A stretch of 22,339 nt of DNA from a virus, in the UHGV virus genome UHGV-0337617; one strand, given 5' to 3'. Of the stretch, positions 2 through 22,339 are shown one piece after another. Every line of letters begins with the position of its first letter. Within the stretch, counting starts at the first letter, position 1. Under the pieces are notes generated by a model. That model saw nothing but the letters and a program-made list of their open reading frames with translations, was not told the DNA's origin and did not search any database. The translations under genes were made by a program, and so were the position numbers.

Positions 2-1753
2 CGTTTTGAGCTGATGGTGAATGAAGTGGCACGTCATGCCGGAGCGTCATCACAGAGTGCAGCGGCGGCAAAGAAATCCGAAACGGCAGCGACATCATCG
101 AAGAACGCGGCGAAAACCTCAGAAACGAATGCAGCTAACAGCGCACAGGCGGCAGCGGCCTCGCAGACTGCATCGGCAAACTCCGCGACAGCAGCCAAAA
201 AATCAGAAACCAGCGCGAAAAATAGCGAGACAGCCACAAAGGCCAGCGAAAAAAACGCAAAATCCAGCCAGACGGCAGCGAAAACCAGTGAGACGAATGC
301 CAAAGACAGTGAAGCCAACGCAAAGGTGAGCGAAACAGCGGCGGCGAACTCGGCGAAAGCATCGGCAGCAAGCCAGACGGCAGCAAAAGCAAGTGAAGAT
401 GCTGCCAGAGAATACGCAAACCAGACAGCAGAGCCGTACAGATATGTTTTACAGCCGCTGCCGGATGTGTGGATACCCTTTAATGATTCGCTGGATATGA
501 TTACGGGCTATTCTCCGGGTTATAAAAAAGTGAAGATTGGTGATAATGTGGTTCAGGTTGCCAGTGATAAACAGGTTAATTTCAGTCGCGCATCAACGGC
601 AACATATATCAACAAATCTGGCGAACTGAAAACGGCGGAAATTAATGAGCCACGATTTGAGTGTGATGGCCTGCTTATTGAGGGGCAAAGAACGAACTTC
701 TTCCCGAACAGTACAGACCCTTCGAAGTGGAATAAGTCAACTTCACTGGACGTTACAGAAACAGGCACAGATAGTTTCGGGTTTAATTATGGCCGGTTTG
801 TCGTACAGGATTCGATTGTTGGTACAAGTAAAGCGCATACCATTACCGGGCTGTATTCGAGTACCGGAGGGGTTGATACTTCAGGGGACGAAAAGCATGT
901 AACTATATCCTGTCGGGTAAAAAGTGAAGTTGATAATATCGCCGTTCGTATTTTATTTGAACATTATGATGGGGAGGTAAGGACATCAATAGGAGCAGCA
1001 AACCTGAACCTTACCACCCGCATAATTAGCAAGACAGGTCAGACAAGCCGTGTTACAGCAAGGTCTGTTAAGGATGATGCAACTGGCTGGATATTTTTTG
1101 AGGCTACATTAAAAGCAGATACAACAGAAAATACGGTTGGTGGTTTTGTCCAGTATTCTCCGGATACAGGGCAGATGGTTGCATCAGGGGATTATCTCGA
1201 TGTAACCACTCCACAGATTGAGGCTGGTACAGGCGCATCATCTTTTATTGTTACGGGGACGGCACCGGTAACGCGGGCAAGCGATATGGTTACAGTTCCG
1301 ATTAAGAATAATCTTTATAATCTTCCTTTTACGGTTCTTTGTGAGGTACATAAGAACTGGTATAAAACGCCAAATGCAGCACCGCGTGTTTTTGACACAT
1401 ACCGGCATCAGGCAGATGCGGGGATCGTAATGGGGTTTGGTTCATCAGGTGGGTACGACGGTTTTCCGTATTGCGATATAGGTGGTTCAGACCGACGAAT
1501 AAATGAAAATGCCGGGCTGGAAAAAATGCTTATTGGTATGCGGGTAAAGTCCGAACGGTCCACATGTGTAGTCAGTAACGGTAAGTTAAGCAGCGAAACT
1601 AAAACCAAATGGGAATATATCCGGAGTACAGCAACCATTCGCATTGGTGGACAAACTACAGCAGGATTACGCCATTTATTTGGGCATGTGAGGAATTTTC
1701 GTCTCTGGCATAAAGAGCTAACAGATGCGCAGCTTGGGGAGGTTGTGGAGTGA
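2..1753 (+). CDS. Tail fibre protein, 5'-partial (frame is open to the window start); N-terminal degenerate Ala/Ser/Thr/Lys-rich repeats
   Basis: Long ORF with no in-frame stop upstream of nt 14; repeated K-x-S-E-T/N-A motifs typical of lambdoid side tail fibres; followed by tail-fibre-associated ORFs and a Tfa remnant. Confidence 0.75.
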   Translation, partial: RFELMVNEVARHAGASSQSAAAAKKSETAATSSKNAAKTSETNAANSAQAAAASQTASANSATAAKKSETSAKNSETATKASEKNAKSSQTAAKTSETNAKDSEANAKVSETAAANSAKASAASQTAAKASEDAAREYANQTAEPYRYVLQPLPDVWIPFNDSLDMITGYSPGYKKVKIGDNVVQVASDKQVNFSRASTATYINKSGELKTAEINEPRFECDGLLIEGQRTNFFPNSTDPSKWNKSTSLDVTETGTDSFGFNYGRFVVQDSIVGTSKAHTITGLYSSTGGVDTSGDEKHVTISCRVKSEVDNIAVRILFEHYDGEVRTSIGAANLNLTTRIISKTGQTSRVTARSVKDDATGWIFFEATLKADTTENTVGGFVQYSPDTGQMVASGDYLDVTTPQIEAGTGASSFIVTGTAPVTRASDMVTVPIKNNLYNLPFTVLCEVHKNWYKTPNAAPRVFDTYRHQADAGIVMGFGSSGGYDGFPYCDIGGSDRRINENAGLEKMLIGMRVKSERSTCVVSNGKLSSETKTKWEYIRSTATIRIGGQTTAGLRHLFGHVRNFRLWHKELTDAQLGEVVE

Positions 1754-9364: not shown

Positions 9365-9442
9365 GATACCTCAGTTACGAACTTTGTTTTATGGTAACTA
9401 AGGTATCAAGGTGTGGCAAGTGATTTTTGATACTTTGGTTTC
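9365..9442. promoter_or_regulatory. Putative left operator (three 14-bp sites, GATAC-N4-GTNNC class)
   Basis: GATACCTCAGTTAC (9365-9378), GATACCTTAGTTAC (reverse, 9394-9407), GATACTTTGGTTTC (9429-9442); 32-bp centre spacing. Confidence 0.5.
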
Positions 9443-9462
9443 TTTTTGTGTTTTGTGTCTGG

Positions 9463-10119
9463 TCAGAAAATATCCCACCTGGCATCAACCACAACACCTA
9501 CTATTTCGCAATCATTGTCCATTTCTATGATTGGATATTGTGGATTAAGGGGCTTTAGAAACGCCTTTCCCATGTCAGAAATATATTTTTTGAATGTTGC
9601 TTCATTGGTGGATTTTTTTCTGGCGATGACGTAACACCCTGAAAAAACTTCTTTATCTGGGTTGACAAGGATCGACATTCCTTCAGGAAATGTTATTCCT
9701 ACGGGCGAAGTCATTGAGTCTCCGTGCACTTCCAGCCAGAACCCCCTCTCACCAGCGTATTTTACAGAATGCCTCCAATTATCCTGATCATACATGTTGT
9801 AGTCATCACCAGAAGTTGCGAATAATCCTGCCTGAACCCAGTTAATTACAGGGTAAGAGTGTGCTGTGTCTCTCTGTGGGCAGCTCTTAACATTATTTTC
9901 CCAATGCTTATCTTTTTCATCTCCGTTCTGAAGCCACTGCGGTGAACACCGCAGTGCAGCTGCAACTTTAAAAAGGGTGTCACCGTTGAAACTTTTTGTA
10001 AGGCCTTGCTCGGCTTTACTGATTGCAACTCTGGTGATCCCAGCTTTTTTAGCCAACGCATCTTGTGTTAACCCAGCTTTTTGCCGTGCGTTGATGAGAC
10101 GTTCACCTAAAGACTTCAT
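9463..10119 (-). CDS. cI: cI-like phage repressor with HTH and S24 (LexA-like) autopeptidase domain
   Basis: C-terminal FWLEVHGDSMTSP...FKK...LNPQYP resembles lambda cI; N-terminal HTH (MKSLGERLINARQKAGLTQDALAKKAGI); GAGGAG RBS before Met26 of the longest ORF. Confidence 0.85.
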   Translation of the reverse strand: MKSLGERLINARQKAGLTQDALAKKAGITRVAISKAEQGLTKSFNGDTLFKVAAALRCSPQWLQNGDEKDKHWENNVKSCPQRDTAHSYPVINWVQAGLFATSGDDYNMYDQDNWRHSVKYAGERGFWLEVHGDSMTSPVGITFPEGMSILVNPDKEVFSGCYVIARKKSTNEATFKKYISDMGKAFLKPLNPQYPIIEMDNDCEIVGVVVDARWDIF

Positions 10120-10143
10120 TTTTCTTCTCCTCTCATGGCTGTT

Positions 10144-10213
10144 GATACTAAAGTAACAGAATTTCTTGATACTTTGGATTCCCGCGGTTAACATCGTTGG
10201 ATAACAAAGTATC
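10144..10213. promoter_or_regulatory. Putative right operator (three 14-bp sites of the same class)
   Basis: GATACTAAAGTAAC (10144-10157), GATACTTTGGATTC (10168-10181), GATAACAAAGTATC (10200-10213, palindromic); between divergent cI and rightward genes. Confidence 0.55.
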
Positions 10214-10230
10214 TGGTGTGAGACTAAAGA

Positions 10231-10458
10231 ATGACCCTTTATGAAATATTAAAAATTCAATTTAAAACCAATGCCGCTATTGGTCGCAGGTTCCCAAAGA
10301 AAGGAAGGCCTCGTGGCAGTCAAGGTGTTGGAAAGTGGAAAACGCGAGGTGTTCCGGAGGATGTTGCCATTCTTTGTCATCTGGATCCGAGCATTCCATA
10401 TACACACCCAAGTCTAGCGAATACAGAAGATGACAAGCCCACAGGAGACCAACAATGA
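10231..10458 (+). CDS. Hypothetical small basic protein in the cro position
   Basis: First rightward ORF after the operator; weak RBS and no clear HTH, so coding status is uncertain. Confidence 0.3.
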   Translation: MTLYEILKIQFKTNAAIGRRFPKKGRPRGSQGVGKWKTRGVPEDVAILCHLDPSIPYTHPSLANTEDDKPTGDQQ

Positions 10459-11162
10459 ACACCGCAATTTTTAACGGCAAAGCATCCATGACCAGCGTTG
10501 AGATCGCAGAGCTGGTGGGTAAACGTCATGACAATGTGAAACGCACTATTGAAACATTAGCCAAAGGTGGCGTTGTCCGGTCTCCTCAAATTGAGGTTTC
10601 CGAAAGAATCAATAACTTAGGTTTTAAAGTTCAATATGAGCATTACCTGTTTGAAGGAGAACAAGGTAAGCGCGACAGCATCATTGTCGTCGCACAGCTC
10701 TGTCCTGAATTCACTGCTCGCCTGGTAGATCGCTGGCACGAACTGGAAGAACAGATCCGTAAGCCAATGAGCGAAATCGAAATGGTTGCCGCGATGGCTC
10801 TTGAAGCAGTTCGTCAGCAGAAACGGATCACTCAGGTGGAAGAAAAAGTCAGCCACGTTGCTGAAACAGTCGAGCAAATTAAAAAGGGCACTATTCGTGA
10901 GGGCTATGCCGGATATCGCCAACTGAAAGCAAAAACCGGTTTGTCAGATGATAAATGCCGCAATCTGGTGAACGCCTATCAGATTCCTACAGACACCCAT
11001 GAGTTCATGACGCCGGACGGATTGTTGTCACGTCGCGCAATTGTTGCTGTGGAACCGTTTATGGCTGCTTTTTATCGGGTTATGGAGGAAGCAGAACCGC
11101 GAGGGACTCGCTGGTATCACCCGAAAATGGGGTTATTTCAGGTTATTGGTTGGCAGCGGTGA
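10455..11162 (+). CDS. Rha-family phage regulatory protein
   Basis: 235 aa; N-terminal region resembles Rha family (SVEIAELVGKRHDNVKRTIETL); AGGAGA RBS; ATGA overlap with previous ORF. Confidence 0.7.
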   Translation: MNTAIFNGKASMTSVEIAELVGKRHDNVKRTIETLAKGGVVRSPQIEVSERINNLGFKVQYEHYLFEGEQGKRDSIIVVAQLCPEFTARLVDRWHELEEQIRKPMSEIEMVAAMALEAVRQQKRITQVEEKVSHVAETVEQIKKGTIREGYAGYRQLKAKTGLSDDKCRNLVNAYQIPTDTHEFMTPDGLLSRRAIVAVEPFMAAFYRVMEEAEPRGTRWYHPKMGLFQVIGWQR

Positions 11163-11384
11163 AAAAAAGCCGGGAGTAACCCGGCTCACTCAACATCAAT
11201 AACGGGGAGCTGTTTCGCATAAAACGGCTCCGAAACATCCAAGAACAGTTCTAAAGATATCAGCAGCTATATGATCATTTCAAGACCAAATATTGATTCT
11301 GCAATTTCGGGACGTTACACTGTCTCCGCACCTTATAAAGCGGGTGCCGGGGGTCGCAGCCCGGAATTGTCAACGGCGATATAT

Positions 11385-11404
11385 GACGCGCCAGCGTCTT
11401 TTTT
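11385..11404 (+). terminator. Putative intrinsic terminator inside the early-right operon
   Basis: GACGC-GCCA-GCGTC hairpin followed by TTTTTT. Confidence 0.4.
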
Positions 11405-11570
11405 ATCGTCCGCGCTCACGCACGCCAGAATTATGGTGGGCTGGGCAGGGGAGCCGAAAGGCTCGCCGGTCTCCGTTGACGCCGGTACTGCGAACCCTGT
11501 TCAGTCTGCCACCAGTGAGTTTCGCAGCTCCGGTGGTGGAAGTTTTCCACAGTCAACGGAGGCTGCCATC

Positions 11571-12122
11571 ATGGCTACGATCCCAACCCTCACTCAACCT
11601 GAAATTGCCATCGTTGATGGTCAGGCTGTTACTTCATCCCTGGCTGTTGCCAACTTCTTCTCCAAGCGTCATGACGATGTACTGAAAAAGATCCGCACGC
11701 TTGAATGCTCCGCATCATTCACTGCCCGCAATTTTTCGGTGAGTGATTACACCGATTGCACAGGCCGCAAACTACCTTGCTATCAAATCACCCGTGATGG
11801 CTTCGCGTTCCTTGCTATGGGCTTTACTGGCAAACGTGCAGCCCGGTTCAAAGAGGCATACATCAACGCCTTTAACCTGATGGAGAAGAGTTTATCAGGT
11901 GCCGATGCGTCTGATATGTCAGCTGTCGCACGAAACGCCAGAGGCGTATACCTGCATTTGCGTGAAATCCATCAAATCTGGACAAGCCAGCTTTATCCAA
12001 TGCTTAAGGCCGTTGAATCTCCGCTGGCTAGCAAACTGTACGACCGTGTTGGTGATGCTGTTTTTGGCGCTGCACTTGTTGATTCCAGGCTGAATGGTTC
12101 TGACAAGGAGGTTCGCCCATGA
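11571..12122 (+). CDS. Rha-family phage regulatory protein (second copy, divergent sequence)
   Basis: GGAGG 8 nt upstream of ATG at 11571; PEIAIVDGQAVTSSLAVANFFSKRHDDVLKKIRTL is Rha-like; the ORF is open upstream to 11271 but that extension is low-complexity. Confidence 0.6.
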   Translation: MATIPTLTQPEIAIVDGQAVTSSLAVANFFSKRHDDVLKKIRTLECSASFTARNFSVSDYTDCTGRKLPCYQITRDGFAFLAMGFTGKRAARFKEAYINAFNLMEKSLSGADASDMSAVARNARGVYLHLREIHQIWTSQLYPMLKAVESPLASKLYDRVGDAVFGAALVDSRLNGSDKEVRP

Positions 12123-12313
12123 TTAGTTACGAAATCATCATCTCCACTACGGAATACAGAAACGATGTATCAGTTCGCACGGATGTATCTGTCTGGCACC
12201 GTCGCTATAAATCCAGAAAAACAGCGGAACTGAAAGCGGCAGAGATGTGTGAAACCATCTCAATGAAAGGTAGCCCGGTTAAATACGTAACTACGGTGGA
12301 GGTGCGTCCATGA
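12119..12313 (+). CDS. Hypothetical protein (64 aa)
   Basis: ATGA overlap with previous gene. Confidence 0.45.
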   Translation: MISYEIIISTTEYRNDVSVRTDVSVWHRRYKSRKTAELKAAEMCETISMKGSPVKYVTTVEVRP

Positions 12314-12534
12314 TCCGCCACATCGTTAATTCCCTGTATCACCGATACAACCGTTGCCCCCGTGTGGGGCAGTGGTTCGCCACCAGCAACGGTCACGTTC
12401 TGCGGGTTTGCCTAGTCAACGCTGAAAGCCAGAAAGTCGTGTGCGAACTACAGGGGCGTAGCTACACCATCAGTTACCCTCTGGCGGTATTTCTGTCTGG
12501 AAAAATGTTTAAGCGTCTGGGAGGTGTGGCGTGA
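12310..12534 (+). CDS. Hypothetical protein (74 aa)
   Basis: ATGA overlap with previous gene. Confidence 0.45.
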   Translation: MIRHIVNSLYHRYNRCPRVGQWFATSNGHVLRVCLVNAESQKVVCELQGRSYTISYPLAVFLSGKMFKRLGGVA

Positions 12535-12830
12535 ACTGTTTTCAGTTTGTGTGCGGATGTGCTTTCGATAACCCGATTCAGCGCCTAATTATGTTGCGTG
12601 TTTTGATGTCGGGTTCTTCAGACGGTGAAGGCGAGAGAGTTATTGATCATCAGGTGCTTGCTGATTTCTGCTGTTGTTCTAAGCAAGCGATATTCAGGGA
12701 AACCCTGGCACTGGAAAGAGCTGGTTATCTTCATATCCGAAAAATTGCAACGCTTACTATTGATGCAAAAGCCAGACTACAACCTGCGCGTGGCTACACA
12801 ATTCTCATGCCGCGGAAGGAGGTTGTATGA
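12531..12830 (+). CDS. Hypothetical protein (99 aa)
   Basis: 4-nt overlaps on both sides; precedes replication genes. Confidence 0.45.
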   Translation: MNCFQFVCGCAFDNPIQRLIMLRVLMSGSSDGEGERVIDHQVLADFCCCSKQAIFRETLALERAGYLHIRKIATLTIDAKARLQPARGYTILMPRKEVV

Positions 12831-13819
12831 GCCGTTACGCCCCCACACCGGAAGTTATGGCTATTGGTCAAATTAATATTTCCGGCAATGTTACACCTGC
12901 GAACTGGTGGAAATATATTCGACTACCCAGTGGGCGTCCGGATGCGACGGCTATCGCTCTGCTTTCAGAGATCGTTTACTGGTACCGCCCGACAGAGGTC
13001 AGGGATGAGCACACCGGAGCGTTGTTGGGATATCGCAAGCGTTTTCAGGGCGACAAACTGCAAAGAAGCTACCAGGCGTTTGCTGAGCAGTTTGGTTTCG
13101 GGAAAAGGGAAACCGCAGATGCGCTGAAGCGTCTGCGCGATGCAGGGTTTATTACTCTGGATTTACGCACGGTGGAAATGCTCGATGGGGTGAAATGCAG
13201 CAATATTTTGTTTGTCGGGATCAACCCACAGGCAATTGCGGCCATCACCACACCTTCTTCTGTTTCGCCAGAAAGTAACAGCAATAATGCAATCAGCGAT
13301 ACAGCTATTACGTTAAAACGGAACACCCCCCGACGTCATAACGGAACAGGGGATACGCCGAATGTTGATACAAATACAGAGATTACTACAGAGATTACAA
13401 CGGAGACTAAAAACACTATTGATGCATCCGCTGACGCGTCTGCGCCAGCGCGTTCTGCCCGACAGGAATATTCACCGGAATTTGAACAGGCCTGGCAGGA
13501 ATATCCCAAACGTGCTGGTGGCAATTCCAAGTCAGCAGCCTTCAAAGCCTGGAAAGCCCGTATCAGGGAGGGAATAAAACCGGAGACCATGCTTGATGGC
13601 GTGAAGCGGTATGCCGCCTGGGTACGTGCTACAGGAAATACCGGCACACAGTTCGTGAAGCAGGCTGCGACGTTCTTTGGACCCGATCGTCACTTCGAAG
13701 ATTACTGGCAACAGCCAGCCGCTCACGGAGGTGGGCGACAGCGACAGGTCGATGTCCTGGCTGGCCTGGGAGCCATGTCTGACAAATTCGGTAAATCCAG
13801 TAACAAATTGACATTCTGA
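12827..13819 (+). CDS. Replication initiation protein (O-like), with internal tandem repeats
   Basis: 330 aa; GGAGG RBS; immediately upstream of DnaC-like and DnaB-like genes; central TEITTEITTETK linker encoded by tandem 12-bp repeats. Confidence 0.65.
   Translation: MSRYAPTPEVMAIGQINISGNVTPANWWKYIRLPSGRPDATAIALLSEIVYWYRPTEVRDEHTGALLGYRKRFQGDKLQRSYQAFAEQFGFGKRETADALKRLRDAGFITLDLRTVEMLDGVKCSNILFVGINPQAIAAITTPSSVSPESNSNNAISDTAITLKRNTPRRHNGTGDTPNVDTNTEITTEITTETKNTIDASADASAPARSARQEYSPEFEQAWQEYPKRAGGNSKSAAFKAWKARIREGIKPETMLDGVKRYAAWVRATGNTGTQFVKQAATFFGPDRHFEDYWQQPAAHGGGRQRQVDVLAGLGAMSDKFGKSSNKLTF
13376..13411. repeat. Tandem 12-bp repeats ACAGAGATTAC(T/A) x2 plus a degenerate third; candidate origin iterons inside the O-like gene
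   Basis: acagagattact / acagagattaca / acggagactaaa read directly. Confidence 0.35.
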
Positions 13820-13820
13820 G

Positions 13821-14708
13821 GTGACAGCGATGATGACGATTGACCAACGTGAGAAACAAACAAGACTACAGGCGCGAATGGATGAGTTACGGGCAGAGAT
13901 TGCATTTGCTCAGAAGGGCGAAAAGCCATGGCCTTATCGTTCCTGCCTGATGCGTGAAGGTCGCGGATATTGCGAAAAACACGGTAAATATCGTACGCAT
14001 ATACTGGTGTGGATCGATCGTAATGGCGAGGACAGAGAAAAAATTTCATGCTGCCCTGACTGCTTGATCGCTGAGGCCAGTGATTTGACCATGGAACTGT
14101 CGTCCCTCAAGGCGGAAGAACTGACTGATAACGCCGGAATTGCTCTGCGTTTTCGGGACTGCGAGTTTGATAATTATCTGGAGGTTAATCCTGACGCAGC
14201 CAGAAATCTTGCGGCCTGTCGCCGCTATGCGGAGAACTGGCCAGATATGCTGGAGAACGGTACCAGTCTTGTTATGACCGGCAGTTGCGGTACCGGGAAA
14301 AATCATCTGGCGGTATCAATGGCAAAACACATCATCCGTAACTATCTGGCCAGTGTGGAGATCACCGACGTGATGCGCCTTACCCGGGCTGTGAAAAACT
14401 GCTGGCGGAATGACAGTGAAAAAACAGCGGATGACGTCATTGAGCATTATGCGTCACTGGATTTGCTGATTGTCGACGAAGTCGGCGTTCAGTTTGGCAG
14501 TGCGGCTGAAATGGCCATTTTGCAGGAAATTATCAATGCCCGGTATGAGGGTATTTTGCCAACTATCCTGATCAGCAACCTTTCACCGGAAGAATTGTGG
14601 GCGTTCATCAGTCCCCGGATTGCCGACAGGATCACCGATGGCGGGCGCAACTGGTTGTCGTTTAACTGGCCCAGCTACCGTTCTCGTATCGGAGGTGTTG
14701 CCGCATGA
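13821..14708 (+). CDS. DnaC-like helicase loader (IstB-like AAA+ ATPase)
   Basis: Walker A GSCGTGKNHL, Walker B LLIVDEVG; N-terminal Cys/His cluster; stop overlaps helicase start. Confidence 0.8.
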   Translation: MTAMMTIDQREKQTRLQARMDELRAEIAFAQKGEKPWPYRSCLMREGRGYCEKHGKYRTHILVWIDRNGEDREKISCCPDCLIAEASDLTMELSSLKAEELTDNAGIALRFRDCEFDNYLEVNPDAARNLAACRRYAENWPDMLENGTSLVMTGSCGTGKNHLAVSMAKHIIRNYLASVEITDVMRLTRAVKNCWRNDSEKTADDVIEHYASLDLLIVDEVGVQFGSAAEMAILQEIINARYEGILPTILISNLSPEELWAFISPRIADRITDGGRNWLSFNWPSYRSRIGGVAA

Positions 14709-16105
14709 CCAGCCAGAACACCCCGGCATGGCGTAACGATGACCTGGAAGGCGCTGTCATCGGTGCGTTTTTTCTGCGTGGGGCCGATCCGGAAGTGATG
14801 GATATTCTGGCCACACTTCCGGCGGATGTATTTTTTGTGCGTCAGTACCGGGATATTTACGCGGGGATTTGCAGACAGGCTCGCATATCCGGCGTCATTG
14901 ACCCCGTACTGCTGTGCAATGAGATGCCGGAACTTGCCCCGGTGATTACCGACACCGGACGCAAAACCTGGGTGAAGTCTTCACTGGAGCACTATGTCGC
15001 AGCGTTGCGGCGCAATGCCGCACTGCGTGATGCAGAAAAAACACTGACTGAAGCATTACAGAATTTACGTGATGCGTATACCTGTGAAGCAGCCGAGGAT
15101 GCCCTGAAGGATGCGCAGAACATGATGGCCTCACTGTCGACCGGAAAGGGCGTCATTCAGCCGGTTCACATTGATGATGTCCTTCCGGAAGTGGTCGACC
15201 GTGTTGAATGCCGCAATCAGGGACTGGAGAAATCCAGGGCGCTGATGACCGGTATTGATGAACTGGACGCAAAAACGGGCGGTATGGAGCCCGGAGACCT
15301 GGTATTCATTGCCGCCCGTCCTTCGATGGGGAAAACCGAACTTGCGCTGGACATCATCGACAAGGTGACTGAGCAGGGGCATGGCGTGCTTCTGTTCACC
15401 ATGGAGATGGCGAACATCCAGATTGGTGAACGTATGGTGTCTGCTGCCGGTGGAATGCCGGTATCCCGTCTTAAGTCTGTTGCCCGTTTTGAAGATGAAG
15501 ACTGGGCGCGTTTCTCGCAGGGCGTGGGACGAATGACGGGGCGTAATATCTGGATGGTGGACCAGGCAAACCTGACCATTGATGAGATATGTGCAACCAC
15601 GAAGCACCACCGGATGAAACACCCGGAAACGGCGCTGGTGGTGGTCGATTACCTCGGCCTGATTAAAACCCGCAGCACGGGGCGTCACGACCTTGCGGTG
15701 GGGGAAATCTCAAAGGGACTTAAAAGCCTGGCAAAATCCGGCGGTTTTCCGCTGATTGCTCTGAGCCAGCTCTCCCGCGGCGTGGAATCCAGACCCAATA
15801 AACGCCCAATGAACTCGGACCTGAAAAACTCCGGGGAAATCGAGGCGGATGCCGACATCATTCTGATGCTTTACAGGGATGAGGTATACAACCCGGAAAC
15901 TCAGGCCAGAGGCATAGCAGAAATCAACATCACGAAACAGCGTAATGGCACGCTCGGGACCATTTACCGGCGTTTTCATAACGGACATTTTCTGCCTGTG
16001 GACCAGGAGAGTGCCCGGGTTCTTTCCACACCCATGACGCCGGGCAATCCGCGCAGATACAGCAATAACCGCATGTCGGGCAGTAAAACGGAGCGTTTAT
16101 TTTGA
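14705..16105 (+). CDS. Replicative DNA helicase (DnaB-like)
   Basis: 466 aa; Walker A ARPSMGKT; DnaB-like C-terminal RecA fold motifs (ALSQLSR, ADADIILMLYRDEVY). Confidence 0.85.
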   Translation: MTSQNTPAWRNDDLEGAVIGAFFLRGADPEVMDILATLPADVFFVRQYRDIYAGICRQARISGVIDPVLLCNEMPELAPVITDTGRKTWVKSSLEHYVAALRRNAALRDAEKTLTEALQNLRDAYTCEAAEDALKDAQNMMASLSTGKGVIQPVHIDDVLPEVVDRVECRNQGLEKSRALMTGIDELDAKTGGMEPGDLVFIAARPSMGKTELALDIIDKVTEQGHGVLLFTMEMANIQIGERMVSAAGGMPVSRLKSVARFEDEDWARFSQGVGRMTGRNIWMVDQANLTIDEICATTKHHRMKHPETALVVVDYLGLIKTRSTGRHDLAVGEISKGLKSLAKSGGFPLIALSQLSRGVESRPNKRPMNSDLKNSGEIEADADIILMLYRDEVYNPETQARGIAEINITKQRNGTLGTIYRRFHNGHFLPVDQESARVLSTPMTPGNPRRYSNNRMSGSKTERLF

Positions 16106-16359
16106 ACAACAGAACAATCACTGTTTCACCGGAACAACTTCGTCGGCAGGCGCAGGAGATGCTTCGTTGTGCTGAACAGATGGAAAAAACGAGCGTGAAA
16201 AAAGATACGCTCCGCAAGCAGCTTACTCCGGCGCTTAGTGATCTGCTGCAGGCAAAACACCGCACACAAAAGGCGGTGGATGAGCTGGTGGATTGCGTGG
16301 CGGAACTGGAAGGACAGGTAAGCCAGTTTGAAACGCTGGTGAAGGAGTTTACTGCGTGA
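16102..16359 (+). CDS. Hypothetical coiled-coil protein (85 aa), TTG start
   Basis: Start overlaps helicase stop; predicted helical. Confidence 0.45.
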   Translation: MNNRTITVSPEQLRRQAQEMLRCAEQMEKTSVKKDTLRKQLTPALSDLLQAKHRTQKAVDELVDCVAELEGQVSQFETLVKEFTA

Positions 16360-16405
16360 TGGCTGAATTTTTTTCTCCTGCGTTCATGCAATACCGTTCG
16401 CTGAG

Positions 16406-17401
16406 GTGACCGTGAGAGCACTGCTGACCCCTGAAATTGCCCCGCGTATGGGGATCGTCTTGTTCAGACCCGGTTCAGAGCTGATGCCCCTGTTTATGCA
16501 GGGGCGTGTCCTGCTGGAGCCTGAGCCGGAACGTTATTCATCTTTTGCCAGTGGTGCCGTTCCGGCAGCATCACAACCGCTGGCGGATGATCCTGCCGTT
16601 CGGGCCGTGTTCCGCCATGAGGCGGTGATCCGTCGTGCTGGTGGCGTGGAATGCCTTGAGAGCTGGTTACTTCGTGAAAAAGGCTGTCAGTGGCCTCATT
16701 CCGACTGGCACAGCGAGAACATGACCACAATGCGGCACGCGCCAGGCGCAATCCGTCTGTGCTGGCACTGTGACAATCTTCTCCGTGACCAGTTCACGGA
16801 ACGGCTGGAAGCAATGGCAACGGATAACTGTGCCCGCTGGGTGTTGTCTGTTGTGCGCCGTGATCTTGGTTTTGATGACAGTCACGTTGTGACAATGCCG
16901 GAACTGTGCTGGTGGCTGATTCGTAATGACCTGGCGGATGCCTTACCGGAAAGTGCAGCCCGTAAGGCACTGAGATTACCGAAGCCTGTTGTGCCGTCTG
17001 TCACCCGGGAAAGTGACCTTGTGCCTTCGGTTCCTGCCACCAGCATCATCCAGGATAAGGCGAAAAAGGTGCTGGCGCTGAAAGTGGATCCGGAGTCGCC
17101 GGAGTCTTTTATGTTACGCCCAAAACGTCGCCGCTGGGTTAATGAAAAGTACACGCGCTGGGTTAAGACGCAGCCGTGTGCATGTTGTGGTAAGCCAGCC
17201 GACGATCCTCATCACCTGATTGGTCATGGTCAGGGTGGAATGGGTACAAAAGCGCATGACCTTTTTGTGTTGCCTTTGTGCAGAAAACACCATGACGAAC
17301 TGCATGCGGATACCGTGGCATTTGAAGAGAAGTATGGTTCCCAACTGGAGCTGATATTTCGTTTTATCGATCGCGCGCTGGCGATTGGTGTGCTGTCCTG
17401 A
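16406..17401 (+). CDS. Hypothetical protein with C-terminal Cys/His zinc-binding cluster (possibly DUF968-like)
   Basis: 331 aa; C-terminal CACCGKP...HH...C..HH motif; lies in the nin-region position between replication genes and Q. Confidence 0.5.
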   Translation: MTVRALLTPEIAPRMGIVLFRPGSELMPLFMQGRVLLEPEPERYSSFASGAVPAASQPLADDPAVRAVFRHEAVIRRAGGVECLESWLLREKGCQWPHSDWHSENMTTMRHAPGAIRLCWHCDNLLRDQFTERLEAMATDNCARWVLSVVRRDLGFDDSHVVTMPELCWWLIRNDLADALPESAARKALRLPKPVVPSVTRESDLVPSVPATSIIQDKAKKVLALKVDPESPESFMLRPKRRRWVNEKYTRWVKTQPCACCGKPADDPHHLIGHGQGGMGTKAHDLFVLPLCRKHHDELHADTVAFEEKYGSQLELIFRFIDRALAIGVLS

Positions 17402-17418
17402 TTTTGTGGAGAAAGTTG

Positions 17419-17799
17419 ATGCGTGATATTCAGATGGTTCTTGAACGCTGGGGGGCATGGGCTGCAAGTGGTAACACCGGGGTGGACTATTCTCCGATCG
17501 CTGCCGGATTCAAAGGACTTTTACCATCTGCCACTAAACCACGTCCGGCCTGCTGCGATGATGACGGACTTATCATTGAAAACTGTCTTGCTCGTCTGAA
17601 GCAGAAAAAACCTGAGGAGTATTCGCTTCTCATTGCTCATTATTTGTTGCGAATATCAAAAAGACAGATAGCCAGGACGAGAAAGAAAAGCGAAAAAGCA
17701 ATACGAATTGAGATGCAGATAGCCGAAGGGTTTATTGACGGATGTTTGTCTGTGCTGGGGGTAAGACTGGAGATGGACGACTGGCTGCTAAAAAAGTAA
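17419..17799 (+). CDS. Q: Late-gene antiterminator Q-like protein
   Basis: MRDIQMVLERWGAWAASGNTGVDYS...AGFKGLL... resembles the phage antitermination Q family; GGAGAAAG RBS; terminator about 70 bp downstream. Confidence 0.65.
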   Translation: MRDIQMVLERWGAWAASGNTGVDYSPIAAGFKGLLPSATKPRPACCDDDGLIIENCLARLKQKKPEEYSLLIAHYLLRISKRQIARTRKKSEKAIRIEMQIAEGFIDGCLSVLGVRLEMDDWLLKK

Positions 17800-17870
17800 A
17801 AAATGATTAGTGCGGTCCGCAAAAAGTATGTCAGTATGTTAAGAGTGGTTACTTCGCCACACAGCTTAAA

Positions 17871-17892
17871 CCCGCCGCGAGCGGGTTTTTTT
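17871..17892 (+). terminator. Intrinsic terminator downstream of Q (tR'-like)
   Basis: CCCGC-CGCGA-GCGGG hairpin followed by TTTTTTT. Confidence 0.6.
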
Positions 17893-18014
17893 ATGGCTGA
17901 AATCGGTCCAGTACAGTAAACGTGCTGGTGGCGGTGAATACCTGTCTTTCAGCTTGCTGGCTTTTTCGACAAGAGTTATTGGTGTGTCACGTTAACCGAA
18001 AAAGGGAAAAAGAC

Positions 18015-18212
18015 ATGCTGAAACAGCAGGATATGACAGAAACCGCCAGAGTGGTGTTTAATGAATTAAGCGTCACCGAACCGGCGACAGTCGGGGAGAT
18101 TGCGCAGAATACTTACCTTTCACGCGAACGCTGCCAGTTAATACTGACCCAGCTGGTTATGGCGGGTCTGGCAGACTATCAGTTCGGTTGTTACAGACGC
18201 CTTCCGCAGTGA
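18015..18212 (+). CDS. Hypothetical small DNA-binding-like protein (65 aa from internal Met)
   Basis: AAGGGA RBS; possible winged-helix segment (VGEIAQNTYLSRERCQLILTQLVMAGL). Confidence 0.4.
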   Translation: MLKQQDMTETARVVFNELSVTEPATVGEIAQNTYLSRERCQLILTQLVMAGLADYQFGCYRRLPQ

Positions 18213-18363
18213 AGGCTTTTTTATTTGTGGTAAATGGGCGGCTGGTGGGTGTTAGGGGCACCCACCAGCCATCTGCTCATGCGTTGGGGTCACAAGCAAA
18301 CCTCAGGCCCATCTGCTTTGCGCAAAAGCGGTATGAGCCTATCAGAGAAGTGCTTATTGATCT

Positions 18364-19413
18364 ATGGCTAATACTGTAAAAATATCCAGTTGTGAGTTAA
18401 TCAACGCCGACTGCCTGGAATTTATCCGGTCGTTACCCGAAAATTCTGTTGACCTGATAGTCACGGACCCGCCGTACTTTAAAGTGAAGCCTGAGGGCTG
18501 GGATAACCAGTGGAAGGGCGACGATGATTACCTGAAGTGGCTGGACCAGTGTCTGGCGCAGTTCTGGCGGGTGCTGAAACCTGCCGGAAGTCTTTACCTG
18601 TTCTGTGGTCATCGCCTGGCATCTGATATCGAAATCATGATGCGTGAACGCTTCAGTGTGCTGAACCATATTATCTGGGCGAAGCCGTCCGGACGCTGGA
18701 ACGGATGCAACAAGGAAAGCCTGCGGGCGTATTTCCCCGCCACAGAGCGCATTCTGTTCGCGGAACATTATCAGGGGCCGTATCGTCCGAAAGATGCCGG
18801 GTATGAGGCGAAGGGCAGGGCACTGAAACAGCATGTGATGGCCCCGCTGATTGCTTACTTTCGTGATGCGCGCGCTGCCCTGGGGATAACGGCAAAACAG
18901 ATTGCAGATGCCACAGGAAAGAAAAACATGGTGCCGCACTGGTTCAGTGCCAGTCAGTGGCAGCTACCGAACGAAAGCGATTATCTGAAATTACAGTCGC
19001 TGTTTGCCCGGGTGGCAGAAGAGAAACATCAGCGCGGGGAACTGGAAAAGCCACACCACCAGCTGGTCAGCACATACAGTGAGCTGAACCGGCAGTATAT
19101 GGAACTGCTGAGTGAATATAAAAATTTGCGGCGGTATTTCGGTGTGACGGTGCAGGTGCCGTACACCGATGTGTGGACGTATAAACCGGTGCAGTACTAT
19201 CCAGGGAAACATCCGTGCGAAAAACCGGCAGAAATGCTGCAGCAGATAATCAGCGCAAGTAGTCGTCCTGGTGATCTGGTTGCGGATTTTTTCATGGGGT
19301 CGGGTTCAACGGTAAAAGCGGCGATGGCACTGGGGCGTCGTGCGATTGGTGTTGAGCTGGAGACCGGACGTTTTGAGCAGACAGTCAGGGAAGTTCAGGA
19401 TTTAATCGTTTGA
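18364..19413 (+). CDS. DNA methyltransferase (N6-adenine or N4-cytosine, beta class), apparently orphan
   Basis: DPPY motif near N-terminus (LIVTDPPYF) and FxGxG motif near C-terminus (DFFMGSGST); no adjacent restriction endonuclease ORF. Confidence 0.8.
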   Translation: MANTVKISSCELINADCLEFIRSLPENSVDLIVTDPPYFKVKPEGWDNQWKGDDDYLKWLDQCLAQFWRVLKPAGSLYLFCGHRLASDIEIMMRERFSVLNHIIWAKPSGRWNGCNKESLRAYFPATERILFAEHYQGPYRPKDAGYEAKGRALKQHVMAPLIAYFRDARAALGITAKQIADATGKKNMVPHWFSASQWQLPNESDYLKLQSLFARVAEEKHQRGELEKPHHQLVSTYSELNRQYMELLSEYKNLRRYFGVTVQVPYTDVWTYKPVQYYPGKHPCEKPAEMLQQIISASSRPGDLVADFFMGSGSTVKAAMALGRRAIGVELETGRFEQTVREVQDLIV

Positions 19414-19462
19414 AACGGATGAGATTGCAGTATTAATTCCGTAACGTTATTATTCCGCGCGC

Positions 19463-19538
19463 GGCCCTTTAGCTCAGTGGTGAGAGCGAGCGACTCATAA
19501 TCGCCAGGTCGCTGGTTCAAATCCAGCAAGGGCCACCA
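19463..19538 (+). tRNA. tRNA with CAT anticodon (Ile2/Met type; ileZ-like)
   Basis: Hand-folded cloverleaf: acceptor GGCCCTT/AAGGGCC, D-stem GCTC/GAGC, anticodon loop CTCATAA, T-arm GCTGG-TTCAAAT-CCAGC, 3' CCA. Confidence 0.8.
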
Positions 19539-19547
19539 TATCACATA

Positions 19548-19624
19548 CCGCCATTAGCTCATCGGGATAGAGCGCCAGCCTTCGAAGCTGGTTGCGCGGG
19601 GTTCGAGTCCTCGATGGCGGTCCA
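19548..19624 (+). tRNA. tRNA-Arg (anticodon TCG; argN-like)
   Basis: Acceptor CCGCCAT/ATGGCGG, anticodon stem CCAGC/GCTGG with loop CTTCGAA, T-arm CGGGG-TTCGAGT-CCTCG, 3' CCA. Confidence 0.8.
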
Positions 19625-19637
19625 TTATCTGTACCCT

Positions 19638-19714
19638 GCGTTGTTAGCTCAGCCGGACAGAGCAATTGCCTTCTAAGCAATCGGTCACTGGTTCGAATCC
19701 AGTACAACGCGCCA
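19638..19714 (+). tRNA. tRNA-Arg (anticodon TCT; argO-like)
   Basis: Acceptor GCGTTGT/ACAACGC, anticodon loop CTTCTAA, T-arm ACTGG-TTCGAAT-CCAGT, 3' CCA. Confidence 0.8.
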
Positions 19715-19728
19715 GACTTATTTTTCCC

Positions 19729-19753
19729 GGCTCGCTTTTGCGGGCCTTTTTTT
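19729..19753 (+). terminator. Putative intrinsic terminator after the tRNA cluster
   Basis: GGCTCGC-TTTT-GCGGGCC hairpin (one G-U pair) followed by TTTTTTT. Confidence 0.5.
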
Positions 19754-19952
19754 AAATGTCTCACAATTCAGACGGTTGACAGTTGTCTGTTTTGCGGGGA
19801 GTTTGTTAAAAGAAACTGGCATGGTGAATCCCCCTGTGCGGAGGGGCAATCAGCGAGTAGGTATATGGGATAATCGCGGATTCAGGTGCTGGTACTGAAT
19901 TCACCGGGAGGCACCCGGCACCATGCAGTTGACTGAAACCATGTATACTCTC

Positions 19953-19983
19953 AGGCCCCACGCACATGTGTTGGGGCCTTTTT
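19953..19983 (+). terminator. Putative intrinsic terminator upstream of the lysis cassette
   Basis: GGCCCCA / TGGGGCC perfect 7-bp stem with 11-nt loop, followed by TTTTT. Confidence 0.5.
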
Positions 19984-20154
19984 ACATGCAAAAAAAAGCC
20001 CGCATATGGATACGGGCGGCAAGGAACAAAAAACGTGAAGTGATCTATTCAGCCAGTGGATAATACCCTGACGTTACCATATTGCGCAATCGCGCATTCT
20101 TTCTTTTTCGCTCCCCTTATAACTACGCCATCCGTTCGCTGCGGAGGTGAGGCT

Positions 20155-20370
20155 ATGAAATCCATGGATAAAATTTCAACGGGCATTGCCTACGGCACCT
20201 CCGCAGGCAGTGCTGGCTACTGGTTTTTACAGTGGCTTGATCAGGTCAGTCCGTCACAGTGGGCTGCGATTGGTGTACTGGGGAGTCTGGTTCTGGGCTT
20301 CCTGACATATCTGACTAACCTGTATTTCAAAATCAGAGAGGACCGTCGTAAGGCTGCACGGGGAGAGTAA
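20155..20370 (+). CDS. S: Class II holin (phage 21 S-like pinholin), 71 aa with dual-start motif
   Basis: [71 protein letters not shown] matches phage 21 S as recalled; GGAGGTGA RBS; two TM segments. Confidence 0.8.
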
Positions 20371-20374
20371 TTCA

Positions 20375-20725
20375 ATGACTCAAAACTATGAACTGATTGT
20401 GAAAGGGATCCGCAATTTTGAGAATAAAGTTACGGTAACTTTAGCGTTACGGGACAAAAAACGCTTTGACGGTGAAATTTTTGACCTGGACATCTCGCTG
20501 GACCGTGTTGAAGGTGCCGCGCTGGGGTTTTATGAGGCAGCAGCCAGAAGGAGCATCAGACAGGTCTTCCTGGATGTTGCTGCCGGGTTATGTGAAGGGG
20601 ATGAGCAGCCGCCGGAAAAGCGCCCCGTAATTTTAGAGGCGCAGAATGTGTGGATAACCTACAAAGGAAAGCTACCAGGAAGAATTACTGGTTCTCTGAA
20701 GACTCCTCCGGAATCACAACCTTAA
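20375..20725 (+). CDS. Hypothetical protein (116 aa) inserted between holin and endolysin
   Basis: GGAGAG RBS; starts 5 nt after holin stop; no recognised family. Confidence 0.5.
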   Translation: MTQNYELIVKGIRNFENKVTVTLALRDKKRFDGEIFDLDISLDRVEGAALGFYEAAARRSIRQVFLDVAAGLCEGDEQPPEKRPVILEAQNVWITYKGKLPGRITGSLKTPPESQP

Positions 20726-20788
20726 GTCACTGACCGGAACAGATAAACCTGTCCGTGGGCAGAAACCGATAAATCCTGATAAATATCC

Positions 20789-21322
20789 ATGAACGCAAAA
20801 ATCAGATACGGCCTGTCGGCTGCCGTTCTGGCACTGATTGCCGTCGGTGCGCCCGCGCCTGATATTCTCGACCAGTTTCTGGATGAAAAAGAAGGTAACC
20901 ACACAACGGCATACCGCGATGGGTCCGGCATCTGGACCATCTGTCGGGGTGCCACGATGGTGGATGGAAAACCCGTTTTTCCCGGTATGAAACTGTCGAA
21001 GGAAAAATGCGACCAGGTCAACGCCATTGAGCGTGATAAGGCGCTGGCATGGGTGGAGCGCAATATTAAAGTACCACTGACTGAACCACAAAAAGCGGGT
21101 ATCGCGTCATTTTGTCCCTATAACATTGGCCCCGGTAAGTGTTTTCCGTCGACGTTTTATAAGCGGCTGAATGCCGGTGATCGTAAGGGCGCATGCGAGG
21201 CGATTCGCTGGTGGATAATAGATGGTGGGCGCGATTGCCGCATACGTTCAAATAACTGCTATGGACAGGTTATTCGTCGTGACCAGGAAAGCGCATTAGC
21301 CTGTTGGGGGATAGATCAGTGA
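20789..21322 (+). CDS. R: SAR (signal-anchor-release) endolysin, lysozyme-like
   Basis: N-terminal Gly/Ala-rich weakly hydrophobic segment ([17 protein letters not shown]) then E-x8-D-x5-T catalytic pattern ([16 protein letters not shown]); follows the pinholin. Confidence 0.8.
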
Positions 21323-21783
21323 GCAGAGTCGCCGCGATTATTTATGCTCTGGTTATCTGCATCATCGTCTGCCTGTCGTGGGCGGTCAATCATTACCGTG
21401 ATAACGCCATCGCCTACAAAGAACAGCGTGATAAAAAAGTCAGTGAGCTGAAGCTGGCGATCGCCACCATCGCTGACATGCAGCAGCGTCAGCGTGATGT
21501 TGCTGCGCTCGATGCAAAGTACTCGAGAGAATTAGCCAATGCGAAAGCTGAAAATGAAACTCTGCGCGCTGATGTTGCCGCTGGTCGTCGTCGGTTGCAC
21601 ATCAAAGCAGTCTGTCAGTCAGTGCGTGAAGCCACCACCGCCTCCGGCGTGGATAATGCAACCAGCCCCCGACTGGAAGACACCGCTGAACGGGATTATT
21701 TCACCCTCAGAGAGCGGCTGATGACGATGCAGATGCAACTGGAAGGGGCACAGGAGTATATCCGCACTCAGTGCATTAAGTAG
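21319..21783 (+). CDS. Rz: Rz (inner-membrane spanin), GTG start
   Basis: Near-identical to lambda Rz as recalled ([31 protein letters not shown]...); GTGA overlap with endolysin stop. Confidence 0.75.
21539..21721 (+). CDS. Rz1: Rz1 (outer-membrane lipoprotein spanin) embedded in Rz in the +1 frame
   Basis: Lipobox VVGC, proline-rich PPPPPAW; matches lambda Rz1 as recalled. Confidence 0.65.
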
Positions 21784-21825
21784 CCTTTTTATCGTGGTAA
21801 ACATTTCGCAGGGTATGAGGTATTT

Positions 21826-22176
21826 ATGCCATCACTAATCCCACGTGCCTGCCGTAAGCGTGGATGTGCAGGAACAACCACAGACAGTTCTGGTTACTGC
21901 GATAAACATCGTGGCGAAGGATGGGTACAGCATCAACGAGGACTGAGTCGCCACCAGCGTGGCTATGGTTCGAAATGGGATGCCATACGTGCGCGCATAC
22001 TGAAGCGTGATAATCATCTGTGTCAGAACTGCCTGCGCAATGGGAGAGCCGTTGAAGCCAGAACTGTGGACCACATCATTCCGAAAGCTCATGGTGGCAC
22101 AGATGCAGACAGTAACCTGCAGAGTCTGTGCTGGCCCTGTCATAAAGCAAAAACAGCGCGCGAACGCATCAATTGA
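21826..22176 (+). CDS. HNH endonuclease
   Basis: 116 aa; HNH motif DHIIPKAHGG...N...LCWPCH plus N-terminal Cys cluster; GAGGT RBS. Confidence 0.75.
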   Translation: MPSLIPRACRKRGCAGTTTDSSGYCDKHRGEGWVQHQRGLSRHQRGYGSKWDAIRARILKRDNHLCQNCLRNGRAVEARTVDHIIPKAHGGTDADSNLQSLCWPCHKAKTARERIN

Positions 22177-22339
22177 TAACAGTTCCCATCTGTAGGGGAG
22201 GGGCGGGTCAAATCTCTGCAACCCTGGCTGCTCAGTACCGCCGCCTGAGTGATCCGTTTCTGCTGACGAACTGCTTCAAGAGCCATCGCGGCAACCATTT
22301 CGATTTCGCTCATTGGCTTACGGATCTGTTCTTCCAGTT
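22140..22339 (-). CDS. 3' portion of a Rha-like gene on the minus strand (5' end beyond the window)
   Basis: 22244-22339 is the exact reverse complement of 10741-10836 (...ELEEQIRKPMSEIEMVAAMALEAVRQQKRITQ), then diverges and stops at 22140; overlaps the HNH 3' end by 37 nt. Confidence 0.35.
   Translation of the reverse strand, partial: LEEQIRKPMSEIEMVAAMALEAVRQQKRITQAAVLSSQGCRDLTRPSPTDGNCYQLMRSRAVFAL

What the first reader, a model, noticed from the sequence alone, without database searches (positions are those of the whole stretch)
20375..20725. Unknown ORF inserted inside the lysis cassette between pinholin and SAR endolysin
The phage 21-type S and R genes are normally adjacent. Here a 116-aa ORF with its own RBS sits between them and would be co-expressed late. 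Its sequence gives no family assignment; it could be cargo or a lysis modulator.
Basis: partly seen in the sequence, partly recalled or inferred. Interest (0 to 1): 0.55.

Follow-up and report, generated by a model that had tools for sequence, protein, structure and literature searches.

The report
Known YdfR gene in lysis cassette
The small gene between the holin and the lysozyme is a real, conserved member of the already annotated YdfR (DUF1327) family, found at this position in most E. coli genomes, so the arrangement is ordinary although the protein's job is still unproven.

Summary
The ORF at 20375..20725 (+, 116 aa) exists as described, between an S21 holin and a lysozyme. It is not an unclassifiable insertion. 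It matches Pfam DUF1327 (141 bits against a cut-off of 25). It is 100% identical at the DNA level to a RefSeq gene named 'YdfR family protein', and its first 74 residues are 80% identical to YdfR of the E. coli K-12 Qin prophage, which has the same essQ-ydfR-rrrQ order. Related DNA occurs in 4101 of 5426 complete E. coli genomes. In every ydfR locus examined that had upstream DNA (133), the holin gene's stop codon lies 4 nt before ydfR. In every such locus with a detectable endolysin, it is of the Qin (RrrQ) type. The true phage 21 pair, S21 overlapping R21, lacks ydfR, and the lysozyme here is only about 33% identical to R21. The gene is under purifying selection (dN/dS 0.27-0.46). The protein has no membrane segment, and the gene has no promoter or terminator of its own. 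Fold searches gave nothing specific. The only functional data are from 2026: K-12 YdfR binds the catalytic half of RNase E through residues 1-72 and co-purifies RNA. My best guess is a late-made cytoplasmic RNase E or RNA-binding accessory protein. A role as lysis modulator is not excluded. Low interest; already known.

The parts
20155..20370 (+). S21-type class II holin (pinholin), 71 aa, with an MKSM dual-start motif (Met1 and Met4)
   Evidence: Pfam PF04971 E 8.6e-36; PHROG holin families. The protein is 100% identical to the holin that precedes genuine R21 in L011.
20362..20365 (+). GGAG Shine-Dalgarno-like motif for ydfR, inside the 3' end of the holin gene, 9 nt before the ATG
   Evidence: Read directly from the sequence. 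The S-ydfR junction has the same spacing in all 133 related loci with upstream DNA.
20375..20725 (+). ydfR-family gene (DUF1327), 116 aa. It has a conserved N-terminal domain (aa 1-72: three beta strands and a long helix) and a subfamily-specific tail (aa 73-116).
   Evidence: Pfam PF07041 141 bits against a cut-off of 25; PHROG 406/2091; RefSeq name 'YdfR family protein' at 100% DNA identity; 80% identity to K-12 YdfR over aa 1-74; dN/dS 0.27-0.46; AlphaFold2 model of the N-domain with pLDDT 90.6.
20726..20788 (+). 63-nt spacer between ydfR and R. Its 3' end (GAAACCGATAAATCCTGATAAATATCC, just before the R ATG) is shared with alleles that carry 0.3-0.9 kb of extra sequence here. The window therefore has a short form of a polymorphic segment.
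   Evidence: DNA alignment A3; classes of S-to-R gap length.
20789..21322 (+). Lysozyme R of the RrrQ (Qin) type, 177 aa, with a weakly hydrophobic Gly/Ala-rich N-terminus (a predicted SAR domain)
   Evidence: Pfam PF00959 E 1.1e-23; about 93% identity to the K-12-type rrrQ in L006; only about 33% identity to R21 (PDB 3HDE E 2.8e-16); hydropathy maximum of 1.87 at residue 9.
21319..21783 (+). Rz i-spanin
   Evidence: Pfam PF03245 E 7.2e-49. The start is taken from the RefSeq annotation of the identical locus.
21539..21721 (+). Rz1 o-spanin lipoprotein, embedded in Rz in another frame (the sequence reads ...VVGC...)
   Evidence: ORF and sequence. The assignment rests on position and the lipobox, so it is an inference.

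Best explanation
The ORF is a ydfR gene, a member of the small Escherichia/Shigella prophage family DUF1327. It occupies that family's invariant position, immediately after an S21-family holin and before an RrrQ-type endolysin. It is transcribed with the lysis genes from the Q-dependent late operon. It is translated from its own Shine-Dalgarno site 4 nt downstream of the holin stop codon. The product is a soluble cytoplasmic protein with a conserved 72-residue beta-beta-beta-alpha domain and a variable tail. The most likely mode of action (inferred) is that the N-terminal domain binds the catalytic half of host RNase E, and possibly RNA, late in infection. This would adjust RNA processing or decay. 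It would not take part in breaching the envelope. Identity and anatomy are shown here. RNase E binding is shown only for the K-12 homologue. Any effect on RNA decay or on lysis is not shown for any member.
For: Family membership:
- Pfam DUF1327 E 1.5e-41 and PHROG 406/2091.
- RefSeq calls the identical gene 'YdfR family protein'.
- 80% identity to K-12 YdfR over aa 1-74, with the same essQ-ydfR-rrrQ order in Qin.

Fixed synteny:
- The holin gene's stop codon lies 4 nt before ydfR in 50 + 8 + 75 loci.
- R is of the RrrQ type wherever an endolysin was detected in these loci.

A real gene:
- dN/dS 0.27-0.46.

Soluble:
- The highest 19-residue hydropathy is 0.69, against 1.7-2.7 for S, R and Rz.

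No own promoter or terminator:
- None was found between S and R.

Not essential for lysis:
- The identical S21 holin works with R21 without ydfR in 24 loci, and one RrrQ-type R abuts S directly.
- 438 phage records carry an S21-type holin, but only 101 carry a YdfR homologue.

Mechanism lead (PMC13232886):
- K-12 YdfR was recovered in a bacterial two-hybrid screen.
- It interacts with Rne(1-597) and co-purifies with Rne(1-598).
- The interaction maps to residues 1-72.
- RNase-resistant... correction not applicable: the co-purifying material is DNase-resistant nucleic acid, i.e. RNA.

Precedent:
- Phage proteins that target RNase E are known: T4 Srd, T7 gp0.7 and phiKZ Dip (PMC4980113).
Against: - RNase E binding has not been tested for this 116-aa allele.
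- For K-12 YdfR the co-purification was from crude lysate without nuclease treatment, so the contact could be bridged by RNA.
- Full-length YdfR gave two-hybrid signals only with Rne(1-597).
- Overproducing K-12 YdfR changed few transcripts and did not affect growth.
- The N-domain is neutral to acidic (pI 6.2 here, 4.6 in K-12), which is not typical of an RNA binder.
- The strict linkage to one holin family and one endolysin family would fit a lysis-related role equally well.
Confidence: 0.5

Rival explanations
1. YdfR is a soluble lysis-timing modulator. It acts from the cytoplasm on the charged C-terminal tail of the pinholin, or on membrane release of the RrrQ-type SAR endolysin, and so tunes when lysis fires.
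For: - It always lies between an S21-family holin and an RrrQ-type endolysin, with an invariant coupled junction to S.
- In K-12 its stop codon overlaps the rrrQ start.
- It is never seen with R21-type endolysins, although the same holin protein precedes both.
- The K-12 ydfR deletion mutant scored as a hit in the primary lists of an envelope-leakiness screen (supplement of PMC3879167).
Against: - It has no membrane segment or signal sequence.
- It shows no similarity to any lysis-category PHROG or Pfam family.
- The same holin, and the same endolysin type, occur and presumably function without it.
- Overproducing K-12 YdfR caused no growth defect.
- The screen hit was not followed up. It could be a polar effect of the resistance cassette driving the downstream lysozyme gene; this is my inference.
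Confidence: 0.25
2. YdfR is the conserved adaptor of a polymorphic cargo locus. The N-domain carries exchangeable C-terminal effector modules, sometimes paired with a small gene on the opposite strand that might act like an immunity gene. The window holds a short allele that lacks the cargo.
For: - Related loci have S-to-R gaps from 312 to 1263 nt.
- YdfR proteins range from 103 to 268 aa. They share aa 1-72 but have different tails.
- Minus-strand ORFs of 88-104 aa (PHROG 2411, 2572, 1853) sit between ydfR and R.
- The window shares both flanks of this variable segment.
- Variants with a shuffled module order exist, such as P0147.
Against: - No toxin, immunity or defence family matched any module (Pfam, PADLOC).
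- A minus-strand ORF also accompanies short 114-aa alleles.
- Short alleles like the window's are common (13 + 30 loci) and are under purifying selection in the tail too (dN/dS 0.24). They are therefore not obviously degenerate.
Confidence: 0.15
3. The ORF is a remnant or chance reading frame with no function of its own. It persists only because it lies between two selected genes.
For: No phenotype has been shown for any family member. Many truncated or frameshifted copies occur in databases.
Against: - dN/dS is well below 1 against several alleles up to 29% divergent.
- The start, ribosome-binding site and spacing are conserved in all 133 loci with upstream DNA.
- The predicted fold of the N-domain is confident (pLDDT 90.6).
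- The K-12 protein accumulates and binds a partner.
Confidence: 0.03

Closest known systems
YdfR (b1555, P76160) of the E. coli K-12 cryptic prophage Qin; Pfam DUF1327 (PF07041)
   Same: Both share the gene order holin - ydfR - RrrQ-type lysozyme - Rz. The N-terminal 74 residues are 80% identical, and that is the region mapped as the RNase E-interacting part. The spacing after the holin stop codon is the same (PMC13232886).
   Different: The C-terminal tails are unrelated: 44 residues here (GLCEGDEQPPEKRPVILEAQNVWITYKGKLPGRITGSLKTPPESQP) against 31 in K-12. The protein is 116 aa rather than 103 aa. Here a 63-nt spacer precedes R, whereas in K-12 ydfR overlaps rrrQ by 4 nt.
Canonical phage 21 / DLP12 lysis cassette (S21 pinholin, R21 SAR endolysin [PDB 3HDE; RrrD 4ZPU], Rz/Rz1)
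   Same: The holin protein is identical to the one found with genuine R21. The overall order is holin, endolysin, spanins.
   Different: In the canonical cassette R21 starts 1 nt before the end of the S21 stop codon and there is no ydfR. Here ydfR intervenes, and the endolysin belongs to a different allele family, about 33% identical to R21.
Phage-encoded modulators of RNase E (T4 Srd, phiKZ Dip/gp37, T7 gp0.7)
   Same: All are small phage proteins that contact host RNase E. Srd, like K-12 YdfR, binds the catalytic N-terminal half (PMC4980113; PMC13232886).
Soluble or accessory lysis regulators encoded next to holins (for example P1 LydB, T4 RI/RIII)
   Same: The gene lies immediately downstream of a holin gene, is co-expressed with it, and is dispensable for lysis as such.
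   Different: There is no sequence or family match. YdfR has no membrane or periplasmic domain. No effect on lysis has been reported. The comparison with LydB and RI rests on my own knowledge and was not tested here.

Membership tests
DUF1327 / YdfR family (Pfam PF07041) | Score above the Pfam gathering threshold over the whole domain | tested here: met
   141 bits against a cut-off of 25, E 1.5e-41, protein residues 1-112 on profile positions 1-92 of 93.
DUF1327 / YdfR family (Pfam PF07041) | Close similarity to the name-giving protein, K-12 YdfR | tested here: met
   80% identity and 95% positives over aa 1-74, E 1e-45. The tails are unrelated.
DUF1327 / YdfR family (Pfam PF07041) | Position between an S21-family holin and an RrrQ-type lysozyme | tested here: met
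   The window has this order. So do K-12 Qin, 50 + 75 IMG/VR loci and 8 genome loci, with no exception.
DUF1327 / YdfR family (Pfam PF07041) | Binding of the N-terminal domain to the RNase E catalytic half, the only reported biochemical property | not testable with these tools
   Shown for K-12 YdfR only (PMC13232886).
Phage 21-type lysis cassette (S21-R21-Rz-Rz1) | S21 pinholin with a dual start | tested here: met
   PF04971 E 8.6e-36. MKSM start. 100% identical to the holin upstream of R21 in L011.
Phage 21-type lysis cassette (S21-R21-Rz-Rz1) | R21-type SAR endolysin directly following S | tested here: not met
   The window R is about 33% identical to R21-type proteins and matches PDB 3HDE only at E 2.8e-16, against 3.9e-110 for the L011 R. 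It lies 418 nt after the S stop codon, with ydfR in between.
Known holin-associated lysis regulators (antiholins and similar) | Sequence-family match to a lysis-category protein, or a membrane or periplasmic sensing domain | tested here: not met
   All PHROG hits are of 'unknown function'. The only Pfam hit is DUF1327. There is no hydrophobic segment.
Phage RNase E modulators (Srd, Dip, gp0.7) | Homology in sequence or fold to a characterised member | tested here: inconclusive
Moron (autonomously expressed prophage cargo) | Own promoter and terminator flanking the gene | tested here: not met
   No sigma-70-like promoter or intrinsic terminator was found on the + strand between 20100 and 21300. 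This was only a consensus scan.
Anti-phage defence systems (PADLOC) | Match to a defence-system protein model | tested here: not met
   The window protein matched no family. The long alleles and the neighbouring minus-strand ORFs gave no significant hit.

The most novel reading that the evidence does not exclude
YdfR proteins could be a new class of late-expressed phage effectors. In this reading the conserved beta-beta-beta-alpha domain docks on the catalytic half of RNase E. The exchangeable C-terminal modules, and the small opposite-strand genes in longer alleles, would diversify what is delivered or regulated. The result would couple host RNA decay to the timing of pinholin/SAR-endolysin lysis.
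Probability: 0.2. Interest if true: 0.55.

Novelty: already known. Interest (0 to 1): 0.15.

Why it matters
As a finding it matters little. The gene, its family and its position have been annotated since the E. coli K-12 genome, and an identical copy is named in RefSeq. The residual value is practical. YdfR is one of the commonest uncharacterised prophage genes in E. coli and sits inside the lysis cassettes of many Shiga-toxin phages (Stx1a and Stx2c types, H-19B, BP-4795). A function in RNA turnover or lysis timing would therefore bear on toxin release. The synteny rule found here, that ydfR occurs only with RrrQ-type and never with R21-type endolysins, and the polymorphic segment downstream give concrete handles for such experiments.

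Tried and rejected
- NCBIfam gave no model for the ORF.
- A profile search of the PDB sequences found nothing: best E 0.9, to centromere protein P.
- Foldseek against BFVD found nothing at E<0.001.
- The afdb50 library was unavailable.
- PADLOC found nothing.
- An exhaustive HMMER search of 1.84 billion representatives found only 64 hits, many of them fragments. The genome scan found the gene only in Escherichia and Shigella, plus two metagenome bins labelled Veillonella and Bacillota that look like E. coli contigs. There are therefore no distant relatives to borrow a function from.
- Literature searches for ydfR and DUF1327 yielded one functional paper (PMC13232886) and one screen list (PMC3879167). 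A broader 'anywhere' search returned only noise.
- I considered that the ORF might be an insertion into a phage 21 cassette. I rejected this because the endolysin is of a different type and the layout is that of Qin.
- I considered an autonomous moron and rejected it for lack of promoter or terminator signals.

Full report
**Observation**

The holin gene ends with TAA at 20368-20370. A GGAG lies at 20362-20365, inside the holin's last codons and 9 nt before the ATG.

The upstream gene (20155..20370) is a 71-aa class II holin. It matches PF04971 'Bacteriophage P21 holin S' at E 8.6e-36 and begins MKSM, the dual-start motif. The downstream gene (20789..21322) is a 177-aa lysozyme (PF00959). It is followed by Rz (PF03245), an embedded Rz1 lipoprotein ORF, and an HNH endonuclease. 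A consensus scan found no promoter-like or terminator-like site on the + strand between the holin and the lysozyme. Further upstream lie a Q antiterminator (17404..17799; PF06530), a DNA methylase and three tRNA genes. The ORF is therefore part of the Q-dependent late operon.

**What the ORF is**

The statement that the sequence gives no family assignment does not hold.
- The protein matches Pfam DUF1327 (PF07041) at 141 bits against a gathering score of 25.
- It matches PHROG families 406 and 2091 at about E 1e-66.
- The window from 3100 to 22248 is 100% identical to a prophage of E. coli strain 20AR0300. There RefSeq annotates the gene as 'YdfR family protein'.
- The name-giving gene is ydfR (b1555) of the cryptic prophage Qin in E. 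coli K-12. Qin has the same order: essQ (holin), ydfR, rrrQ (lysozyme), rzpQ/rzoQ.
- The window protein and K-12 YdfR are 80% identical over residues 1-74. After that their tails are unrelated.

**How common it is**

- DNA related to the ORF occurs in 4101 of 5426 complete E. coli genomes, often several times per genome. It is near full length in 1903 of them.
- Among deposited phage genomes, 101 records encode a homologue. They include many Stx1a- and Stx2c-converting phages, H-19B, BP-4795 and mEp460. By comparison, 438 records encode an S21-type holin.
- The family is narrow. HMMER against 1.84 billion representative proteins found only 64 hits, many of them fragments.
- A scan of one genome per species found it only in Escherichia and Shigella. 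Two metagenome bins with other labels also matched, but their contigs look like E. coli.

**Synteny**

I took the 80 IMG/VR loci with the holins closest to the window's and located YdfR and R in each. An endolysin could be found in 73 of them.
- 24 have an R only about 33% identical to the window's R. Twenty-three of these start 1 nt before the end of the holin stop codon, and none has ydfR.
- 48 have the window-type R (over 90% identical), and every one has ydfR in between.
- 1 has the window-type R abutting S without ydfR.

The abutting R is the genuine R21. The L011 protein matches PDB 3HDE/3HDF (phage 21 lysozyme) at E 3.9e-110 and the DLP12 RrrD structure 4ZPU at E 5.3e-111. The window's R matches the same entries only at about E 1e-16. 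It is about 93% identical to the Qin-type rrrQ.

A second set gave the same picture. Of 79 IMG/VR loci found through the YdfR N-domain, all 75 with upstream DNA had an S21-family holin (72-100% identical) whose stop codon lies 4 nt before ydfR. Every locus with a detectable endolysin had the RrrQ type. The 8 genome loci agree.

So the window does not show a phage 21 cassette with something inserted. It shows the ordinary Qin-type cassette, whose holin happens to be identical to S21.

**Is it a functional gene?**

Pairwise dN/dS between the window allele and alleles up to about 29% divergent is 0.27-0.46. For the tail region alone (codons 73-112) it is 0.24. The start codon, ribosome-binding site and spacing are invariant across loci. 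The protein has no hydrophobic segment: the 19-residue hydropathy maximum is 0.69, against 1.7-2.7 for S, R and Rz. It is near neutral, with pI 6.3. It is therefore a soluble cytoplasmic protein.

**Structure**

The full-length AlphaFold2 model was weak overall (pLDDT 61.5) because residues 70-116 scored below 50. A model of residues 1-75, built on a more diverse alignment, was confident (pLDDT 90.6, pTM 0.76). It shows three antiparallel strands (5-14, 18-27, 34-43) and one long helix (50-73). Invariant residues are M1, E6, L7, G47, Y53, E54 and A57.

Foldseek against viral models found nothing at E<0.001. No PDB sequence relative exists. I draw no functional conclusion from the fold.

**Variation in the family**

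The segment between the conserved core and R is polymorphic. S-to-R gaps fall into classes from 312 to 1263 nt.
- There are three alternative short tails: the K-12 type, the window type, and a '...YTIKINSSDNSITGC' type.
- Extensions bring the protein to 174-268 aa.
- In the longer classes a minus-strand ORF of 88-104 aa (PHROG 2411, 2572 or 1853, all of unknown function) lies between ydfR and R.

None of these modules matches a Pfam or PADLOC family. The window shares the sequence on both sides of this variable segment and carries a short form of it.

**Mechanism**

The only experimental information I found is a 2026 study (PMC13232886).
- K-12 YdfR was isolated in a bacterial two-hybrid screen.
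- It interacts with RNase E residues 1-597.
- It co-purifies with chromosomally encoded Rne(1-598).
- The interacting part is its first 72 residues.
- It brings down DNase-resistant nucleic acid.
- Its overproduction changed few transcripts and did not affect growth.
- The gene is essentially silent in uninduced K-12.

Two caveats apply. The co-purification was from lysate without nuclease treatment, so RNA bridging is possible. No effect on RNase E activity was shown. The ydfR deletion mutant also appears in primary hit lists of an envelope-leakiness screen (PMC3879167 supplement). It was not followed up there. I suspect a polar effect on the downstream lysozyme could explain it, but this is inference.

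Phages are known to target RNase E: T4 Srd, T7 gp0.7 and phiKZ Dip (PMC4980113). Because the mapped region is 80% identical in the window protein, the best-supported reading is a late-made cytoplasmic protein that binds RNase E or RNA. I put the family assignment at about 0.97 and this mechanism at about 0.35-0.4.

The main rival is a soluble modulator of pinholin or SAR-endolysin timing. The strict synteny favours it. Against it stand the absence of any membrane feature and the fact that both partner genes occur without ydfR. A third reading treats YdfR as the adaptor of a polymorphic cargo locus. It rests only on the layout of the longer alleles.

**Verdict**

But it is not unclassified, not an unusual insertion, and the flanking endolysin is not the phage 21 type. 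This is an already known, very common gene in its usual place. Interest is low.

Noticed in passing
window 19790-19989 (+): A full-length match to the Rfam sRNA family STnc100 (140 bits against a gathering score of 47). It lies between the tRNA cluster and the holin gene, the position where Stx phages carry their toxin genes.
   Followed up: no
window 11328-11516 (+): Matches to isrK (58.7 bits) and C4 antisense RNA (78.8 bits) just upstream of and within the start of a Rha-family regulator gene. This suggests a P1/P7-like C4-antirepressor immunity module in this lambdoid phage.
   Followed up: no
window 19463-19714 (+): Three tRNA genes (anticodons CAT, TCG, TCT; RefSeq calls the first tRNA-Ile) lie between the DNA methylase and the lysis cassette, as in Stx phages.
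   Followed up: partly
window 1-3110 and the junction near 3110-3130: The first 3.1 kb (tail-fibre, tail-fibre-assembly and DinI-like genes) matches the far right end of the same prophage in strain 20AR0300, about 38 kb away from the integrase end. The window therefore represents the circularly joined (excised or permuted) phage genome, with attP next to the integrase gene. The 579-aa ORF at 14..1753 has no Pfam match.
   Followed up: partly
related loci L028, L041, L023, L070 (between ydfR and R): Minus-strand ORFs of 88-104 aa (PHROG 2411, 2572, 1853; unknown function) and long YdfR alleles of 174-268 aa with unrelated C-terminal modules. The layout resembles a polymorphic effector with a partner gene. 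There were no Pfam or PADLOC hits.
   Followed up: partly
related loci L011-L090: The same S21 holin protein (99-100% identical) is found in front of two unrelated endolysin modules, R21-type without ydfR and RrrQ-type with ydfR. This points to a recombination boundary exactly at the end of the holin gene.
   Followed up: yes
protein P0147: A 112-aa family member in which a module normally found at the C-terminus of long alleles comes first and the 'EKRPIILEAQ...KTPPKW' segment comes last, with no N-domain. This is evidence of module shuffling, or of a mis-called gene.
   Followed up: no
window 21826-22176 (+): An HNH endonuclease gene (PF01844, E 1.9e-16) lies directly between the spanin genes and the terminase small subunit. 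This is the arrangement typical of HNH-assisted cos packaging in HK97-like phages.
   Followed up: no
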